A stretch of 29,073 bases of DNA from a virus (taxonomy: Duplodnaviria > Heunggongvirae > Uroviricota > Caudoviricetes), in IMG/VR virus record IMGVR_UViG_2778261396_000002. The stretch is one strand, 5' to 3'. The notes beneath the pieces are model-generated. The model was not told the origin of the DNA. It did not search any database and saw nothing but the letters and a program-made list of their open reading frames with translations. Position numbers and translations under genes: made by a program. Position 1 is the first letter of the stretch, and each line of letters begins with the position of its first letter. This document shows positions 2,896 to 27,463 of the stretch, piece after piece.

Positions 2896-3456
2896 CTATT
2901 GTGCGGTCGGCTTCAGGAGAGTCTGACCCGGTGTTTTGTGCTCTGCCAGATACTGATGCTGGAATATACACATGCGAATGGCATTACGATATTGACCATT
3001 AATAAAAAACTCATGCATCAATTCACCTTCAACCGTAAAGCCAAGCTTGCGGTAAATGTGAATCGCTTTTTCATTCTCTTTATCGACGATCAGATACAAC
3101 TTATAGAGATTGAGAACGGTGAAGCCATAGTCCATTGCTAATTTGGCGGCACGGGTTGCCAGACCTTTCCCCTGATACTCCGGGGAGATAATTATCTGAA
3201 ATTCTGCGCGGCGATGTACATGGTTAATTTCCACCAGCTCCACCAGACCGGCTTTTTCGCCGTCACATTCCACCACAAAGCGCCGTTCGCTCTGATCGTG
3301 AATATGCTTATCATACAGATCAGAGAGTTCAACAAAGGCTTCGTAGGGTTCCTCAAACCAGTAACGCATCACACTGGCGTTATTGTCGAGTTGATGTACA
3401 TAGCGTAAATCTTCACGCTCCAGCGGGCGTAGCTTAACACTGTGGGCGCTTGGCAT
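2896..3456 (-). CDS. speG: Spermidine N1-acetyltransferase SpeG (186 aa)
   Basis: ORF translation [41 protein letters not shown]… GNAT fold, matches recalled SpeG. Confidence 0.95.
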
Positions 3457-21613: not shown

Positions 21614-22663
21614 GTGCGGGTATTACTTAGACCTGTTCTGGTGCCTGAGCTTGGGCTGGTGGTCCTTAAGCCGGGCCGTGAATCCATACAGATATTTCAT
21701 AATCCTCGAGTGCTGGTGGAACCGGAACCAAAAAGCATGCGTAATCTGCCATCCGGAGTCGTTCCTGCCGTTCGCCAGCCGCTGGCGGAAGACAAAACAT
21801 TGCTGCCGTTTTTTAGTAACGAACGGGTGATTCGTGCTGCTGGCGGCGTTGGCGCATTGTCCGACTGGCTATTACGTCATGTTACATCCTGCCAGTGGCC
21901 TAATGGCGATTACCATCACACTGAAACAGTCATTCACCGTTATGGTACCGGCGCAATGGTGTTGTGCTGGCACTGCGACAACCAACTGCGTGACCAGACA
22001 TCGGAATCACTGGAGCTGCTTGCTCAACAAAATCTGACAGCATGGGTGATTGACGTCATCCGTCACGCAATAAGCGGTACGCAGGAGCGGGAATTATCTT
22101 TGGCTGAATTATCCTGGTGGGCGGTCTGCAATCAGGTGGTGGATGCACTACCTGAGGCTGTATCGCGTCGTTCGCTGGGATTACCAGCGGAAAAAATCTG
22201 CTCGGTGTACCGCGAAAGCGACATCGTACCGGGAGAGCAGACCGCCACCAGCATATTGAAACAACGCACAAAAAATCTTGCACCGTTGCCTTACGCCCAC
22301 CAGCAACAAAAATCACCACAGGAAAAGACGGTGGTAAGCATCACCGTTGATCCAGAGTCTCCGGAATCTTTCATGAAGCTGCCTAAACGTCGCCGCTGGG
22401 TTAAGGAGAAATACACACGTTGGGTTAAGACACAGCCGTGTGCTTGCTGCGGTATGCCAGCCGACGATCCGCATCATCTGATTGGTCACGGGCAGGGCGG
22501 AATGGGAACAAAAGCACATGATCTCTTTGTGTTGCCTTTGTGCAGAAAGCATCACAACGAGCTGCATACGGATACAGTGGCATTTGAAGATAAGTATGGC
22601 TCCCAACTGGAGCTGATATTTCGTTTTATCGATCGCGCGCTGGCAATTGGCGTACTGGCGTAA
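21614..22663 (+). CDS. ydfU: DUF968-family prophage protein YdfU (349 aa from GTG)
   Basis: ORF 21575..22663; GTG 21614 after GGAGG gives recalled length; C-terminal Cys/His cluster (CACCGMPADDPHHLIGHG…CRKHHNELH). Confidence 0.75.
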   Translation: MRVLLRPVLVPELGLVVLKPGRESIQIFHNPRVLVEPEPKSMRNLPSGVVPAVRQPLAEDKTLLPFFSNERVIRAAGGVGALSDWLLRHVTSCQWPNGDYHHTETVIHRYGTGAMVLCWHCDNQLRDQTSESLELLAQQNLTAWVIDVIRHAISGTQERELSLAELSWWAVCNQVVDALPEAVSRRSLGLPAEKICSVYRESDIVPGEQTATSILKQRTKNLAPLPYAHQQQKSPQEKTVVSITVDPESPESFMKLPKRRRWVKEKYTRWVKTQPCACCGMPADDPHHLIGHGQGGMGTKAHDLFVLPLCRKHHNELHTDTVAFEDKYGSQLELIFRFIDRALAIGVLA

Positions 22664-22676
22664 GTGGAGAACGAGC

Positions 22677-23429
22677 ATGAACCTTGAAGCCTTACCAAAA
22701 TATTACTCCCCAAAATCTCCAAAATTGAGCGATGACGCTCCAGCGACAGGCACCGGTTGTTTAACAATTACGGATGTAATGGCAGCGCAGGGGATGGTGC
22801 AGTCGAAAGCACCACTTGGGTTGGCCTTATTTCTGGCAAAAGTTGGTGTTCAGGACCCTCAGTTTGCGATTGAAGGCCTGCTAAATTACGCGATGGCACT
22901 GGATAACCCGACATTGAACAAATTGAGTGAAGAAATCCGGTTACAGATTATTCCTTTCCTCGTGAGTTTTGCCTTTGCTGATTACTCCAGGTCTGCGGCA
23001 AGTAAGGCTCGCTGTGAGCATTGTTCAGGTACGGGATTTTATAATGTATTGCGCGAAGTGGTGAAACACTACAGACGCGGGGAATCTGTAATCAAGGAAG
23101 AATGGGTGAAGGAACTATGTCAGCATTGCCATGGTAAGGGCGAAGCCAGCACAGCGTGCAGAGGGTGTAAGGGTAAAGGGATTGTTCTGGATGAAAAAAG
23201 AACCCGGTTTCATGGCGTACCGGTATATAAGATTTGTGGGCGTTGTAATGGAAACCGGTTTAGTCGTTTACCGACCACGCTGGCACGACGTCATGTCCAG
23301 AAGCTGGTACCAGACCTGACCGATTATCAGTGGTATAAGGGGTATGCGGACGTCATTGGTAAACTGGTAACAAAGTGCTGGCAGGAAGAAGCATACGCGG
23401 AAGCGCAATTGAGGAAGGTGACGAGATAA
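22677..23429 (+). CDS. quuQ: Late-gene antiterminator Q (QuuQ-like, 250 aa)
   Basis: Internal ATG 22677 of ORF 22647..23429: MNLEALPKYYSPKSPKLSDD…; Cys-rich zinc-binding region; position upstream of late promoter/terminator. Confidence 0.85.
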   Translation: MNLEALPKYYSPKSPKLSDDAPATGTGCLTITDVMAAQGMVQSKAPLGLALFLAKVGVQDPQFAIEGLLNYAMALDNPTLNKLSEEIRLQIIPFLVSFAFADYSRSAASKARCEHCSGTGFYNVLREVVKHYRRGESVIKEEWVKELCQHCHGKGEASTACRGCKGKGIVLDEKRTRFHGVPVYKICGRCNGNRFSRLPTTLARRHVQKLVPDLTDYQWYKGYADVIGKLVTKCWQEEAYAEAQLRKVTR

Positions 23430-23460
23430 ATGATTTTTGCTGAAGATGGCGACATGATGT

Positions 23461-23489
23461 TTGCATTTTTCAAAAAATATGGATAAAAT
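23461..23489 (+). promoter_or_regulatory. Candidate late promoter pR'-like (-35 TTGCAT, 17 bp, -10 TAAAAT)
   Basis: Hexamers read directly; lies between Q gene and strong terminator as in lambda pR'/tR'. Confidence 0.45.
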
Positions 23490-23535
23490 TTTTTCAACGA
23501 TGGGCTTTGTATACCCGACGTTAAGAAAAAGTAGA

Positions 23536-23560
23536 AAACCCGCTGATGAGCGGGTTTTGT
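23536..23560 (+). terminator. Rho-independent terminator (tR'-like)
   Basis: AAACCCGCT-GATG-AGCGGGTTTTGTGCTTT hairpin plus T-run. Confidence 0.7.
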
Positions 23561-23706
23561 GCTTTAAATGGGGCAATGGTAATGTTGAATCTCATCCCGG
23601 GACTCATGTCTGTTAACTTATTATTTAGCTGGTGACTTGGTTATTTGCCTGATGTTTAAAATGTTTTCTTCCAGTACAATGTCCCTAAACACAATGAGTC
23701 TGCTTA

Positions 23707-23796
23707 TTATATTATTAGCAGAGCTATTACGGCCAAAGTACAGCATAAGCTTTTAAAGCCAATCAACCAGTCATCAAGACAGACGGGGTTATTCAT
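23707..23796 (-). CDS. Small hydrophobic peptide ORF (29 aa) directly downstream of cspF
   Basis: Minus-strand GGAGAG SD then ATG: [29 protein letters not shown]; manual translation, below ORF-track cutoff. Confidence 0.3.
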
Positions 23797-23850
23797 AAAA
23801 ACTCTCCATGTGTGATCCGATGGGGCCTGAAATTAAAGCTTTAATATAGC

Positions 23851-24063
23851 TCATGAAAGGTAAACATTGGCAGCTGAAGGGCCACGCAGACCATTTATCC
23901 GGCAAAATTCCACGCGTAATCCGGTGGTAATTTCTTCTGCATCGCGGAGATTGAGCGCTGAAACATGAAGCTGGACATCGATACGACCATCGGATGGGGT
24001 GATAAGACCCTTGCCGCTTTTGCCGTCAAAGGTTTTGACAATTCCTGTCATTTTACGGGACAA
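23851..24063 (-). CDS. cspF: Cold-shock-domain protein CspF-like (70 aa)
   Basis: ORF translation [70 protein letters not shown]. Confidence 0.88.
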
Positions 24064-24363
24064 AAAAATTCCTTAATACTGATAACTTGGCGCACTATAC
24101 ACACGTTCCTGAAGAAAGCTATAGTTTTTTGATGGGGTTGAAGATGGCTGGATGTCTAAAATAAACATTGCTTCATATGTTCAACTATGCGTTAATGATT
24201 GCGTCGGTTTGAAGAACAGACGATATACGAAGTAGTTTACTAAAGCAGTTCTCATTTCAGGTGTTATTCACTTATTCCTTCTTTGAGTCTCTCCAATTAA
24301 GTACGAAGTCGTTTCTGTTATGCAAACCATTTATGCCGAAAGGCTCAAGTTAAGGAATGTAGA

Positions 24364-24579
24364 ATGTCAAATAAAATGACTGGTTTAGTAAAATGGTTTA
24401 ACGCTGATAAAGGTTTCGGCTTTATTTCTCCTGTTGATGGTAGTAAAGATGTGTTTGTGCATTTTTCTGCGATTCAGAATGATAATTATCGAACCTTATT
24501 TGAAGGTCAAAAGGTTACCTTCTCTATAGAGAGTGGTCCTAAAGGTCCTGCAGCAGCAAATGTCATCATTACTGATTAA
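24364..24579 (+). CDS. cspB: Cold-shock protein CspB (71 aa)
   Basis: ORF translation [71 protein letters not shown]. Confidence 0.93.
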
Positions 24580-24861
24580 AATTCATCGCTCGTCTGTATA
24601 CGATAACGAAGAAGGCTGATGCCTGAGTAGAGATACGGACAGAGTAGTGAATATTGGATCTCTTTAATAAAAAGTAAGGAGGTCCAATACATGAAACAAT
24701 GGCTAGCATATTTGGCAAAATCTTAATCAGGAAAAGTATGCTAACCATTGTGGTGAAGTGCAGGTTTGCTGCATGAATAGTTTTACAGCAGAAGCTAACT
24801 GCTGGCATGGCAAAACAAAGTGCGTAAGTGGATGACTCCCACAAAAAGCACCACAATCTCA

Positions 24862-24886
24862 AACCCGCTCAGGCGGGTTTTTTATT
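24862..24886 (+). terminator. Rho-independent terminator ~280 nt downstream of cspB
   Basis: AAACCCGC-TCAG-GCGGGTTTTTTATT. Confidence 0.7.
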
Positions 24887-24942
24887 ATCTGCTTTAAATA
24901 TATTATTAAAATATAAAAAATACTTGTTACTAATAAAATCAA

Positions 24943-25113
24943 TCAGGCTACAGCTTTAAGATTTGTCTGGAATACTTTGTTGCAATGAGGGCAGATCAAA
25001 AGGGCACCTTTTTGTACTCTTGAAAAACTGTGTTCTGACTCTTGGGTGCAGTTTGGGCAGGAACATTTAACGAGATAATTACGGCGTGATTTTGAGTTTT
25101 TACGTTCTGACAT
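24943..25113 (-). CDS. Small zinc-ribbon protein (56 aa from ATG 25113; CxCxxC…CxxC)
   Basis: ORF 24943..25164; MSERKNSKSRRNYLVKCSCPNCTQESEHSFSRVQKGALLICPHCNKVFQTNLKAVA. Confidence 0.5.
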   Translation of the reverse strand: MSERKNSKSRRNYLVKCSCPNCTQESEHSFSRVQKGALLICPHCNKVFQTNLKAVA

Positions 25114-25332
25114 AGGCTTTTCCTGTATAAATGGCCGTATACAGTACACTAAATATGAAAACATTTCTCGTATTATTATTTTATATATGACTTTCTTTCA
25201 AAATAATTACCCACATTTTTAATGTGTATGTTTTTTTAGCGCCGTTGAGAACAACGTGTGCTGTCAAAACTACCCCGTAGACTCCGATCTTTTCAAACAT
25301 ATTGCACCATCCGTGTACATCGGGGTGAGGAT

Positions 25333-25548
25333 ATGAAATCAATGGATAAGTTAACAACAGGTGTTGCCTATGGCACATCGGCGGGTAATGCTGGTTTCTG
25401 GGCATTGCAGTTACTCGATAAAGTAACTCCGTCACAGTGGGCTGCAATCGGTGTGCTGGGTAGCCTGGTTTTTGGCCTGCTGACGTATCTGACAAATCTT
25501 TATTTCAAGATTAAAGAAGACAGGCGTAAGGCTGCGAGAGGAGAGTAA
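25333..25548 (+). CDS. essQ: Class II holin EssQ (S21-like, 71 aa)
   Basis: Internal ATG of ORF 25258..25548: [71 protein letters not shown]. Confidence 0.85.
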
Positions 25549-25552
25549 TCCA

Positions 25553-25860
25553 ATGACTCAAGACTATGAACTGGTTGTGAAAGGAGTCCGTAATTTTGAG
25601 AATAAAGTTACGGTAACTGTAGCCTTACAGGACAAAGAACGCTTTGACGGTGAAATTTTTGACCTGGATGTCGCCATGGACCGTGTTGAAGGAGCTGCGC
25701 TGGAGTTTTATGAGGCAGCAGCCAGAAGGAGCGTCCGGCAAGTCTTCCTGGAAGTAGCAGAAAAATTGTCAGAAAAAGTTGAGTCTTATCTGCAGCATCA
25801 GTACTCCTTTAAGATTGAAAATCCTGCCAATAAGCACGAGCGTCCTCATCATAAATATCT

Positions 25861-25864
<4 letters not shown>
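25553..25864 (+). CDS. ydfR: Prophage protein YdfR (103 aa)
   Basis: ORF translation MTQDYELVVKGVRNFENKVTVTVALQDKERFDGEIFDLDV…; between holin and lysozyme. Confidence 0.75.
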
Positions 25865-26888
<1,024 letters not shown>

Positions 26889-27250
26889 GGTAATATTAAA
26901 TCGGAACATTTACATCGCGGAATGTAAAATTTAAATAAAAAGGACTCTTCCATGAGCCAAAATTCCTGAAATCTTAAGGGTAAGATAAAAGGTCTTAATC
27001 AGAATGACACGTTTTATTAATAAATAAAGCTATTCTTTCATTGCTGTGTTTTTCTTTACAAAAGTAATCCTTGCTATGGGTGGTTAATCATGCGTTAATG
27101 GTGTTCTGGTTTGTTACAAATTTATCTGAAGCAGTCATTGTTATAATTTTATTATTTGTACCTCTTGAGATTTCCTTGTTGGTTTTTCTCTCTGATATTT
27201 TTTTTCGGACCATTCTGCCCAAGGGCTAATTTCTTCAAAAGGTAATAATT

Positions 27251-27463
27251 ATGTCTAACAAAATGACTGGTTTAGTGAAATGGTTTAACCCTGAAAAAGG
27301 TTTTGGTTTCATCACGCCGAAAGATGGCAGCAAAGATGTGTTTGTCCATTTCTCAGCAATTCAGAGCAACGATTTCAAAACATTAACTGAGAATCAGGAA
27401 GTTGAATTTGGTATTGAGAACGGACCTAAAGGTCCTGCCGCTGTTCATGTAGTGGCGCTTTGA
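27251..27463 (+). CDS. cspI: Cold-shock protein CspI (70 aa)
   Basis: ORF translation [70 protein letters not shown]. Confidence 0.93.

What the first reader, a model, noticed from the sequence alone, without database searches (positions are those of the whole stretch)
24580..24886. Long structured 3' region of cspB with an 11-codon ORF behind a near-perfect SD and a degenerate zinc-ribbon frame
The cspB transcript has no terminator until 24862-24886. Within this ~280 nt, TAAGGAGGT-N7-ATG opens MKQWLAYLAKS* (24691-24726). In another frame, a Cys-rich stretch without a start codon (…HCGEVQVCCMNSFTAEANCWHGKTKC…) resembles the zinc-ribbon ORFs near cspB and cspI. This suggests either a regulatory mini-ORF/sRNA or a remnant of a csp plus zinc-ribbon gene pair.
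Basis: seen in the sequence. Interest (0 to 1): 0.45.

Follow-up and report, generated by a model that had tools for sequence, protein, structure and literature searches.

The report
Conserved structured RNA behind phage cspB
The ~300 bases after the cold-shock gene cspB in the E. coli Qin prophage are a conserved, heavily folded RNA domain that travels with phage and plasmid csp genes and matches no Rfam family or searched paper; the 11-codon ORF and the Cys-rich frame are by-products of its helices.

Summary
The window is the late region of the E. coli K-12 Qin prophage. The SD-ATG pair is no more than chance. The Cys-rich frame has no similarity to YnfU or YnfQ.

What is really there is a composite structured 3'-UTR RNA on the + strand:
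- hairpin H1, with a conserved internal loop;
- hairpin H2, whose 3' arm is the "SD";
- long hairpin P1, which carries the mini-ORF;
- a four-way junction (P2 to P5);
- a bidirectional terminator.

Homologues lie directly after csp genes in lambdoid prophages, phage-plasmids and chromosomal islands of at least nine enterobacterial genera. About 95% of cells are paired, and 11 core pairs plus 9 H1 pairs show compensatory changes. The junction is about as conserved as the csp coding sequence. One strand (AUUGU) covaries with two mutually exclusive partners, which suggests a bistable fold.

Published Term-seq shows an abundant RNA 3' end at 24692/24694, inside the mini-ORF start codon. There is no Rfam family and no paper in the library searched.

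The most likely role is a cis-acting 3'-end, processing and stability module of the csp mRNA, possibly responsive to temperature or Csp protein. That function is inferred, not shown.

The parts
24364..24579 (+). cspB coding sequence. The element starts right after its stop codon.
   Evidence: ORF list; RefSeq annotation of K-12; the Rfam cspA thermoregulator model covers 24203-24595.
24581..24652 (+). H1, a long hairpin. Its conserved core is 24592-24640: basal stem GUCUGUAUA/GAUACGGAC, internal loop CGAUAACGAAGA / UGAGUAGA, and apical stem GGC/GCC at 24614-16 / 24621-23.
   Evidence: MFE fold. RNAalifold on 15 sequences gives 14 pairs, 9 of them with compensatory changes. The internal-loop sequence is conserved in four of the five clades.
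24652..24689 (+). H2 hairpin (UAUUGGAUCUCUUUA / UAAGGAGGUCCAAUA).
   Evidence: Inverted repeat I3; MFE fold. Variants within the Qin clade keep the pairing: GGAGG->GGAGA turns a U.G pair into U-A, and C->U changes in the 5' arm turn C-G pairs into U.G. The sequence is not conserved in other clades.
24692..24694 (+). Dominant in vivo RNA 3' end (K-12 coordinates 1641226/1641224, minus strand). It lies 5-7 nt after the core H2 stem (which ends at 24687) and inside the mini-ORF ATG.
   Evidence: Term-seq table of Adams et al. 2021, PMC7815308, supplement 1, on three sheets; column legend.
24691..24726 (+). 11-codon ORF MKQWLAYLAKS*. It overlaps the 5' arm and loop of P1 and is judged non-functional as a coding unit.
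   Evidence: Translation. Allele variation is non-synonymous or nonsense. It is absent in other clades and in deletion variants.
24696..24751 (+). P1 hairpin (arms 24696-24713 and 24734-24751). Its outer 5 bp, ACAAU 24696-24700 with AUUGU 24747-24751, compete with the outer part of P2.
   Evidence: Inverted repeat I1, 18 nt, 89% complementary; pair counts on alignment A3.
24747..24857 (+). Four-way junction. P2 is AUUGUGGUG 24747-55 with CACCACAAU 24849-57. P3 is 24758-63 with 24769-74. P4 is 24786-91 with 24799-804, with loop AAGCUAA at 24792-98. P5 is 24828-31 with 24839-42. The joining segment AAAGUGCGUAAG at 24817-28 is identical in all recovered members (11 of its 12 bases were part of the search pattern).
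   Evidence: Inverted repeat I5; RNAalifold. Pair counts: 94.9% of cells paired, 11 pairs with both-side changes, 0 of 500 shuffles reach this. Covariance-model hit 24682-24859, 158 bits.
24861..24886 (+). Intrinsic terminator hairpin plus U-run. It is also used from the opposite strand by ynfU, whose 3' end lies at 24858 on the - strand.
   Evidence: Terminator scan. Term-seq lists a plus-strand K-12 3' end at 1641060, which is window 24858 on the - strand.
24943..25113 (-). ynfU, a convergent zinc-ribbon gene. It is a frequent but not obligatory neighbour of the csp-RNA unit.
   Evidence: Annotation; Pfam PF23499; neighbourhoods of related loci.

Best explanation
The segment 24580-24886 is the RNA-level 3' domain of a mobile csp cassette. 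It is neither a coding region nor a gene remnant.

**Architecture.** Transcribed with cspB, it folds into H1, H2, P1, a four-way junction (P2 to P5) and a terminator.

**Most likely function (inferred).** I think it works in cis on the csp mRNA.
- The transcript is cut or trimmed in the single-stranded linker between H2 and P1. This leaves a cspB RNA whose 3' end is capped by the H1/H2 hairpins and is therefore stable.
- The downstream P1 and junction domain, together with the bidirectional terminator, insulates the strongly inducible csp promoter from the convergent ynfU gene and, in prophages, from the lysis genes.

**Possible switch (inferred).** The strand AUUGU (24747-24751) can pair with either the 5' ACAAU (extending P1) or the 3' ACAAU (closing the junction through P2). 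The domain is therefore probably bistable. Temperature or the RNA chaperone encoded just upstream could shift the balance and so modulate processing.

**What is shown.** Conservation, structure, covariation, linkage to csp genes, and the in vivo 3' end.

**What is inferred.** The nuclease step, the stabilising and insulating role, and the switch.

**Confidence.** The figure given covers the whole statement. That this is a conserved structured RNA and not a coding feature I hold at about 0.9. The specific cis-acting processing and stability mechanism I hold at about 0.4.
For: **Locus.** Qin prophage of K-12.

**Homologues.**
- The element lies directly after csp genes in phage-plasmid Cyrano, phage PHB10 and more than 100 IMG/VR contigs.
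- It is also found in 29 species-representative genome loci spanning Escherichia, Shigella, Enterobacter, Kosakonia, Kluyvera, Phytobacter, Superficieibacter, Raoultella, Leclercia, Atlantibacter and Pseudescherichia.
- There is one copy per locus.
- It is present in 79 of 80 phage contigs that encode a near-identical CspB. The 80th contig ends just after the gene.

**Structure.**
- z = -6.9.
- RNAalifold gives 33 pairs, 9 of them compensatory.
- The curated structure on 25 distinct sequences has 94.9-95.5% of cells paired and 11 pairs (43 cells) with both-side changes. No shuffle in 500 reaches this.
- Slid controls give 19-55% paired and at most 3 such pairs.
- H1 has 9 of 14 pairs with compensatory changes.
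- The + strand fits better than the - strand: 94.9% against 91.8% overall, and 100% against 88% for P3.
- Nucleotide identity of the junction to K-12 is 72-83%, against 69-80% for the csp coding sequence.

**Alternative helices.**
- Columns 79-83 covary with both columns 23-27 and columns 188-192.
- In K-12 the two folds are nearly iso-energetic, -49.2 against -48.7 kcal/mol.

**Expression.**
- Term-seq lists a strong 3' end at 24692/24694 on three sheets: 604,404, 1,233,565 and 2,464,295 reads.
- This is comparable with sroA (976,436) on the same strand in LB at OD 0.4.
- No minus-strand (K-12) 3' end is listed at the terminator.

**Context.** csp 5' leaders are already known to be conformational switches responsive to temperature and Csp protein (review PMC12360218).
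Against: - No experiment links the element to mRNA stability, insulation or temperature.
- The strict conservation of unpaired sequences (loop AAGCUAA, AAAGUGCGUAAG, the H1 internal loop) points to specific recognition by a protein or RNA. A generic stabiliser or terminator would not need that.
- Members outside the Qin, Cyrano, u57 and L132 clades lack a canonical terminator, so insulation cannot be the universal role.
- At 37 C the junction-plus-terminator species was not detected by Term-seq. The conserved core may therefore act only transiently or only in the cold.
- The covariation comes from about five clades. Each compensatory pair reflects few independent events, and the tool's shuffle control does not correct for relatedness.
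- All homologues were retrieved with exact-match patterns (26 or 22 fixed bases). This inflates apparent invariance and restricts the known range.
- In most other clades one of the two alternative folds is favoured by 2-12 kcal/mol.
Confidence: 0.5

Rival explanations
1. The four-way junction (with or without P1 and the terminator) is the functional unit and acts in trans. It would be a 3'-UTR-derived RNA that binds or titrates a protein or another RNA. Candidate proteins are the cassette's own CspB or CspF, the zinc-ribbon YnfU, ProQ, Hfq or a ribonuclease. The csp gene would merely supply transcription.
For: - The unpaired segments of the junction are the most conserved parts, and the junction is as conserved as the coding sequence.
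- The junction is kept in natural deletion variants that lose H2 and P1.
- In K-12 it ends in a terminator with a U-tail, as in known sRNAs.
- The loop core AGCU is self-complementary, so a kissing interaction is possible (seen directly in the sequence).
Against: - No 3' end at the terminator appears in Term-seq at 37 C.
- No complementary target above chance was found in the window, and there is no complementarity to the cspB 5' UTR or coding sequence.
- Many members lack a canonical terminator.
- YnfU is absent from several loci that have the RNA.
- No binding data could be obtained.
Confidence: 0.25
2. The mini-ORF MKQWLAYLAKS is translated and acts as a regulatory leader-type ORF. Ribosomes on it would melt P1 and shift the fold.
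For: - A strong SD with 7-nt spacing is present.
- The ORF overlaps the 5' arm of P1, so translation would in principle favour the P2-closed fold.
Against: - The SD-ATG pair is at chance frequency, and the SD is sequestered in H2.
- The ORF is confined to one clade.
- Six of six substitutions are non-synonymous or nonsense, including a stop at codon 4.
- It is deleted in L142, L176, L177 and L199.
- The main 3' end cuts its ATG.
- It is absent from the searchable Ribo-RET ORF table.
Confidence: 0.04
3. The region is a decayed protein-coding gene. It would be either a zinc-ribbon partner of csp on the + strand, or the 97-aa ORF on the - strand (24569-24862) that some phage records annotate as hypothetical.
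For: - A Cys-rich open frame exists.
- Open frames over the same stretch are called in PHB10, PhiR42_1 and HannyBb.
- Real zinc-ribbon genes (ynfU, ynfQ) sit next to csp genes.
Against: - There is no similarity to YnfU and no Pfam family for either frame.
- Indels between clades are not multiples of three, and start and stop positions differ.
- Substitutions follow base-pair compensation, not codon structure.
Confidence: 0.02
4. The conserved hairpins act at the DNA level, for example as a single-stranded DNA structure used in replication, recombination or transposition of the mobile elements that carry them.
For: - The element occurs only on mobile DNA.
- IS200C, IS1 and another IS element are found inserted in or next to it in some strains.
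Against: - Position and orientation are fixed relative to a csp coding sequence in very different replicons.
- G.U pairs favour the transcribed strand.
- The strand is transcribed and yields a defined RNA end.
Confidence: 0.03

Closest known systems
cspA-family 5'-UTR thermosensor and Rho switch (Rfam RF01766, cspA thermoregulator; leader switches reviewed in PMC12360218)
   Same: It belongs to the same mRNAs. It is a long structured UTR with alternative conformations. Temperature and Csp proteins are the natural inputs.
   Different: It lies 3' of the coding sequence rather than 5'. The Rfam model stops at 24595 and does not cover it. It shows no sequence similarity or complementarity to the cspB leader. 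No output such as an RBS or a Rho site has been identified.
3'-UTR-derived small RNAs of enterobacteria, such as CpxQ, SroC and MicL (class recalled from my own knowledge)
   Same: It lies between a stop codon and the mRNA's terminator. The transcript is processed within the 3' UTR. Conserved unpaired segments could serve as seeds.
   Different: It is much larger, about 300 nt with a four-way junction. The abundant species keeps the upstream part rather than the terminator-proximal part. Many members have no canonical terminator. Hfq or ProQ binding is unknown.
Phage mRNA 3' processing and retroregulation hairpins, such as lambda sib and the T7 RNase III sites (recalled from my own knowledge)
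   Same: It is a structured element downstream of a phage-borne gene that sets the mRNA 3' end and hence stability. P1 is an 18-nt near-perfect duplex.
   Different: Involvement of RNase III or RNase E was not tested, because no usable nuclease data could be retrieved. The junction has no counterpart in those signals.
Riboswitch or RNA-thermometer type bistable RNAs
   Same: It has two mutually exclusive helices that share one strand, and both are maintained by compensatory change.
   Different: No ligand pocket, expression platform or Rfam family was found. It is located in a 3' UTR. Few independent substitutions support the switch.
Short regulatory ORFs and leader peptides
   Same: An SD, an ATG and a short ORF overlap a helix arm.
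   Different: The ORF is not conserved, not under purifying selection, dispensable, and truncated by the main RNA end.

Membership tests
Rfam RF01766 cspA thermoregulator | Match of the covariance model over the segment | tested here: not met
   The model matches 24203-24595 only (154 bits). Nothing in 24596-24886 reaches E <= 1 except a spurious Trp_leader hit on the terminator. The result is the same in five divergent loci.
Any Rfam 15 family | A cmscan hit at or near the gathering score | tested here: not met
   The best hits over the element are Trp_leader at 21.7 bits (gathering score 41) and STnc370 at 32.4 bits (gathering score 54), both driven by the terminator.
3'-UTR-derived sRNA | A discrete stable RNA that shares the mRNA's terminator 3' end | tested here: not met
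   Term-seq lists no 3' end on the cspB strand at about 24882-24886. The dominant end is at 24692/24694. Only 37 C conditions were available.
3'-UTR-derived sRNA | Binding to Hfq or ProQ and a conserved seed with identifiable targets | not testable with these tools
   RIL-seq and CLIP supplements were not held. No target above chance was found in the window.
Leader-peptide or regulatory small ORF | ORF and SD conserved among homologues, with purifying selection | tested here: not met
   The ORF is found only in the Qin clade. Six of six changes are non-synonymous or nonsense. It is deleted in four natural variants.
Leader-peptide or regulatory small ORF | Evidence of translation initiation | tested here: inconclusive
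   It is not in the searchable text of the Stringer et al. Ribo-RET supplement. The Weaver et al. supplement is not held. There are no cold-shock data.
YnfU (PF23499) and YmcF-like/YnfQ (PF23641) zinc-ribbon proteins | Sequence similarity, paired CxxC knuckles, and an ORF with a start codon | tested here: not met
   BLASTP finds no alignment at E <= 100. There is no Pfam hit at E <= 1. The frame has no ATG, and it is broken in other clades.
Intrinsic (Rho-independent) terminator | A GC-rich hairpin followed by a U-run | tested here: met
   The stem at 24861-24880 has 8 pairs, 5 of them G-C, followed by TTTTATTATCT. In vivo use is documented only for the opposite strand, with the ynfU end at 24858.
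Bistable (switch-type) regulatory RNA | Two mutually exclusive helices, each supported by covariation | tested here: met
   Pairs 26-80 (UA 11, AU 9) and 27-79 (CG 18, UA 6) compete with pairs 79-192 (GC 16, AU 7) and 80-191 (AU 15, UA 8) on alignment A3. Only about two independent substitutions support each helix.
Bistable (switch-type) regulatory RNA | A signal-dependent change of fold with a defined regulatory output | not testable with these tools
   Only computed energies are available: K-12 gives -49.2 against -48.7 kcal/mol at 37 C.
tRNA or tmRNA-like gene | A cloverleaf recognised by ARAGORN | tested here: not met
   ARAGORN finds 0 genes in 24300-25100. The joining segments are much longer than in tRNA.
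RNase III processing signal | A duplex of about two helical turns that is cleaved in an rnc-dependent way | tested here: inconclusive
   P1 has 18-nt arms that are 89% complementary. Cleavage data could not be obtained.

The most novel reading that the evidence does not exclude
The element could be a 3'-UTR counterpart of the csp 5'-leader switches. It would be a bistable RNA carried by phage and plasmid csp cassettes, whose P1/P2 helix exchange is driven by temperature or by the RNA chaperone encoded immediately upstream. The exchange would decide whether the transcript is cut between H2 and P1, releasing or destroying a conserved four-way-junction RNA that binds a specific partner. That would add a new regulatory layer to the cold-shock response and to prophage-host interplay in the best-studied bacterium.
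Probability: 0.2. Interest if true: 0.75.

Novelty: new member of a known kind. Interest (0 to 1): 0.55.

Why it matters
cspB is a textbook cold-shock gene in E. coli K-12. Decades of work have focused on its promoter, 5' leader and coding region.

This analysis shows that its 3' region is a roughly 300-nt RNA domain with a four-way junction. The domain is conserved as strongly as the protein, is spread on phages, phage-plasmids and islands across enterobacteria, and is processed in vivo at a defined site. That gives a concrete, testable object: a possible missing layer of csp mRNA control, or a phage-borne functional RNA.

It also has an annotation consequence. Several "hypothetical protein" calls over this stretch in phage records, and the tempting SD-plus-mini-ORF, are most likely artefacts of RNA helices.

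Tried and rejected
- **Zinc-ribbon remnant.** Rejected by BLASTP and Pfam and by frame-breaking indels.
- **Minus-strand 97-aa ORF.** No Pfam family and not conserved in frame.
- **Mini-ORF.** Rejected as a conserved coding unit.
- **Related element after cspI or cspF, or elsewhere in the window.** The covariance model, run without filters, finds only 24682-24859.
- **tRNA-like gene.** ARAGORN is negative.
- **Pairing or similarity with the cspB 5' UTR or coding sequence.** Smith-Waterman scores are below the 95th percentile of shuffles. The 8-nt match between the cold box and H1 that I saw by eye is therefore treated as chance.
- **Targets complementary to the invariant loop and joining sequence in the window.** At chance level.
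- **Independent promoter for the junction.** No promoter-like site on the + strand lies between 24126 and 25180.
- **Literature.**
  - No paper mentions a cspB 3' UTR element or contains its conserved sequences.
  - Supplements for RIL-seq, RNase III mapping and the Weaver Ribo-seq study are not held, and several papers could not be opened.
- **Widening the family through a Csp protein alignment.** This returned only near-identical Qin-type loci.
- **Resemblance of the H1 internal loop to loop-E, sarcin-ricin or UAA/GAN motifs.** This is only a recollection and was not tested.
Full report
**Locus.** The window matches the Qin cryptic prophage of E. coli K-12 at 99.9% identity. Window position x corresponds to NC_000913.3 position 1665918 - x on the minus strand. 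I checked this against sequence strings in a published table. The local gene order is:
- quuQ/ydfT, 22647-23429 (+)
- ynfS (-)
- cspF, 23851-24063 (-)
- cspB, 24364-24579 (+)
- the finding, 24580-24886
- ynfU, 24943-25113 (-)
- essQ, ydfR, rrrQ, rzpQ
- cspI, 27251-27463 (+), then ynfQ and ynfR

Neither RefSeq record annotates anything between cspB and ynfU.

**Observation check.** The sequence features exist where stated.
- TAAGGAGGT lies at 24675-24683, followed by 7 nt and ATG at 24691. The ORF reads MKQWLAYLAKS*.
- The Cys-rich frame is open from 24707 to 24835 and has no ATG.
- The one canonical terminator is at 24861-24880 plus a T-run.
- The fold of 24580-24890 is far stronger than chance, -105.2 against -71.1 +/- 4.9 kcal/mol, z = -6.9.
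- An AGGAGG-N4-10-ATG motif is expected about once in a window of this size and composition, so two occurrences mean nothing.

**Relatives.**
- blastn finds the segment in 1716 of 5426 complete E. coli genomes, nearly always at 95% identity or more.
- It also finds it in a few lambdoid phages.
- The 3' half matched, at about 75-82% identity, an unannotated spot in the 108-kb phage-plasmid Cyrano and a spot in phage PHB10. In both cases it lies just downstream of a csp gene.
- A looser pattern over one genome per species gave 29 loci. They are from Escherichia, Shigella, Enterobacter, Kosakonia, Kluyvera, Phytobacter, Superficieibacter, Raoultella, Leclercia, Atlantibacter and Pseudescherichia, plus one bin labelled Veillonella that is identical to E. 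coli and probably contaminated.
- In every case the element follows a csp coding sequence on the same strand, starting within a few bases of the stop codon.
- Contexts differ widely: lambdoid late regions (Qin, Superficieibacter), SSU5-like phage-plasmids next to hicAB, dnaE or recombination genes, and islands next to umuC or an efflux pump.
- The usual companions are a divergent cspF-like gene upstream and, often but not always, a convergent ynfU-like zinc-ribbon gene downstream.
- Of 80 phage contigs encoding a CspB at least 96% identical to the query, 79 have the element. The remaining contig ends right after the gene.

**Architecture (+ strand, window coordinates).**
- H1, 24581-24652. The basal stem has a completely different sequence in each clade yet stays paired. 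The internal loop is conserved as CGAYAACGAWGA / UGAGURGA. A short apical stem covaries (AGGC/GCCU, AGGA/UCCU, GGC/GCC with GNRA loops). RNAalifold gives 14 pairs, 9 with compensatory changes.
- H2, 24652-24689. This strong hairpin has the "SD" as its 3' arm. Its sequence is clade-specific.
- P1, with arms 24696-24713 and 24734-24751.
- A four-way junction, closed by P2 (AUUGUGGUG 24747-55 with CACCACAAU 24849-57). It contains:
  - P3 (GUGCAG/CUGCAU);
  - P4 (CAGCAG/CUGCUG, loop AAGCUAA);
  - P5 (GUGG/CCAC);
  - joining segments that are identical in every recovered member, notably AAAGUGCGUAAG at 24817-28. Part of that identity was imposed by the search pattern (see Caveats).
- The terminator.

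**Pair statistics.**
- On 25 distinct sequences, 94.9% of 850 cells form standard pairs.
- Eleven pairs (43 cells) changed on both sides, and no shuffle in 500 reaches any of these values.
- Sliding the partners by 1-3 columns drops pairing to 21-55% and leaves 0-3 compensatory pairs.
- The + strand fits better than the - strand (94.9% against 91.8%; P3 100% against 88%; H1 87.6% against 82.3%). This agrees with the orientation relative to csp and with the transcription data below.
- The junction is 72-83% identical to K-12 across clades, against 69-80% for the csp coding sequence. After removing the 22 bases fixed by my search pattern it is still roughly on par with the coding sequence.

**Two competing helices.** The strand AUUGU (24747-51) can pair with ACAAU at 24696-24700, which extends P1. 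It can also pair with ACAAU at 24853-57, which forms the outer half of P2. Both options are maintained across clades:
- K-12 has ACAAU / AUUGU / ACAAU.
- The u57 clade has ACAAC / GUUGU / ACAAC.
- The Kosakonia type has AUAUC / GAUGU / ACGUC. Here the two partners differ from each other, so this is not simply a direct repeat.

In K-12 the two folds are computed at -49.2 and -48.7 kcal/mol. In other clades one fold is favoured by 2-12 kcal/mol. I read this as suggestive of a bistable RNA, but only a couple of independent substitutions support each helix.

**The mini-ORF and the Cys-rich frame.**

Mini-ORF:
- It occurs only in the Qin clade.
- Its alleles are MKQWLAYLAKS, MKQWPAYLAKS...AIT...VIT...AKP and MKQ-stop. 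All six substitutions seen are non-synonymous or nonsense.
- SD variants (GGAGA, GGCGG) occur, and the G->A change improves H2 pairing.
- Four natural variants (L142, L176, L177, L199) have lost H2, P1 and the ORF while keeping H1 and the junction.

Cys-rich frame:
- It has no similarity to YnfU and no Pfam family.
- It is interrupted by 1-2 nt indels in other clades.
- Its Cys codons are the UGC triplets of the P3 and P4 arms.

The covariance model R1 built from the core finds one hit in the window (24682-24859, 158 bits) and nothing near cspI or cspF.

**Expression.** The curated Term-seq table of Adams et al. 2021 (PMC7815308, supplement 1) gives the following.
- An "orphan" minus-strand 3' end at 1641226 (window 24692) or 1641224 (window 24694) appears on three sheets, with 604,404, 1,233,565 and 2,464,295 reads.
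- Minus-strand values in that table appear to be on their own scale, with a minimum of about 23,469. On that scale the site is comparable with sroA (976,436) and above the dapD terminator (242,146) in LB at OD 0.4.
- The end lies 5-7 nt after the core H2 stem (ending at 24687), in the short single-stranded linker before P1, and inside the mini-ORF start codon.
- No end on that strand is listed at the predicted terminator.
- An end on the opposite strand at 1641060 (window 24858) shows that the same hairpin terminates ynfU.
- The same paper reports Rho-dependent termination within the cspB 5' UTR and ORF.

So the region is transcribed at least to 24694 and yields a defined, abundant end at 37 C. 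The fate of the junction part is unknown, and no cold-shock data could be consulted.

**Most likely mechanism.**
- *Shown:* this is a conserved RNA structure, physically tied to csp genes, with a defined in vivo 3' end between H2 and P1.
- *Inferred:* the transcript is cleaved in or trimmed back to the H2-P1 linker. The cspB RNA is then capped by H1 and H2, which should protect it from 3' exonucleases.
- *Inferred:* the P1, junction and terminator part insulates this inducible promoter from ynfU and, in prophages, from the lysis genes.
- *Inferred:* the P1/P2 exchange could tune this with temperature or Csp concentration. This would parallel the known behaviour of csp 5' leaders (review PMC12360218).

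The main weakness is that generic stabilisation or insulation does not explain the strict conservation of unpaired sequences. The chief rival is therefore that the junction is a trans-acting or protein-binding RNA.

**Comparison with known systems and novelty.**
- No Rfam 15 family matches the element in the window or in five divergent loci.
- No paper in the searchable library mentions a cspB 3' UTR element or contains its conserved sequences.
- It resembles, in different respects, the csp 5' leaders, 3'-UTR-derived sRNAs, phage RNase III or retroregulation hairpins, and bistable riboregulators. It fails or cannot be tested on the defining features of each (see the membership table).
- I therefore file it as a new family within the known kind "conserved structured UTR RNA", with function unproven.

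**Caveats.**
- All homologues were retrieved by exact patterns, so the invariance of the pattern bases is by construction and the true phylogenetic range is unknown.
- About five clades carry the covariation signal.
- The shuffle control ignores phylogeny.
- Expression evidence comes from one study at 37 C.
- Subscription-journal literature could not be searched.

Noticed in passing
window 23460-23562 (+): Just after quuQ there is a promoter-like site (TTTGCA-18-TAAAAT, 23460-23489) and a hairpin at 23535-23558 followed by UUUUGUGCUUU. Term-seq lists an abundant 3' end at K-12 1642356 (-), which is window 23562. This looks like the short late-promoter leader transcript of Qin, the analogue of lambda PR'-tR' 6S RNA. 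If so, the cspF-cspB-ynfU cassette sits between tR' and the lysis genes.
   Followed up: partly
window 24858 (- strand) and 24861-24886: The ynfU transcript ends at 24858 according to Term-seq (K-12 1641060 +). The hairpin after the cspB element is therefore a bidirectional terminator, and it is documented in vivo only for ynfU.
   Followed up: partly
window 24538-24540: In cspB the window has CCT (Pro) where K-12 MG1655 and all relatives examined have GCT (Ala) (..ESGPKGP.. against ..ESGAKGP..). This may be the single mismatch that keeps all 25 listed hits at 99.9% identity; its position was inferred from the translations, not from the alignment.
   Followed up: no
L142 7550-7658; L176, L177, L199 1803-1911: A natural deletion variant of the element fuses H1 almost directly to P2. 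It lacks H2, P1 and the mini-ORF, and matches only positions 60-167 of the covariance model. It occurs in Escherichia sp. E1V33 and in three phage contigs.
   Followed up: yes
L139 4411-4626 (Raoultella lignicola): The segment joining P3 and P4 carries about seven tandem copies of CCTGAAAG. This shows that the linker tolerates large insertions.
   Followed up: no
hits H1-H5; L081 about 2914-3080: Some E. coli strains have insertion sequences inside or next to the element. IS200C or IS1 lies between cspB and ynfU, and another IS end sits inside P1 in L081.
   Followed up: no
L128 4775-4963; L145 and L130 upstream of the cspF-like gene: In the chromosomal-island versions a second small zinc-ribbon ORF of 56-62 aa (..CPVCGL..CPGCKALF..) lies beyond the cspF-like gene, and a ynfN-like gene follows the RNA. 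This makes a recurrent set of small zinc-ribbon proteins and csp genes around the RNA.
   Followed up: no
L132 2941-3070; L004 3788-3989: Rfam STnc100 sRNA hits above the gathering score lie a few hundred bases downstream of the element in a Superficieibacter prophage and in phage PHB10. No such hit exists in the window region 22000-27000 at E <= 1.
   Followed up: no
window 24569-24583 and 24719-24733: The last codons and stop codon of cspB (UUACUGAUUAAAAUU) are 87% complementary over 15 nt to the apical loop of P1 (AAUCUUAAUCAGGAA), which includes the mini-ORF stop codon. I did not find this in other clades by eye, so it may be chance.
   Followed up: partly
window 24569-24862 (-); L005 2490-2765; L006 2490-2729: A minus-strand ORF over the element is annotated as a hypothetical protein in phage records PhiR42_1 and HannyBb. 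It has no Pfam family and is not conserved in frame, so it is probably a spurious gene call over an RNA element.
   Followed up: partly
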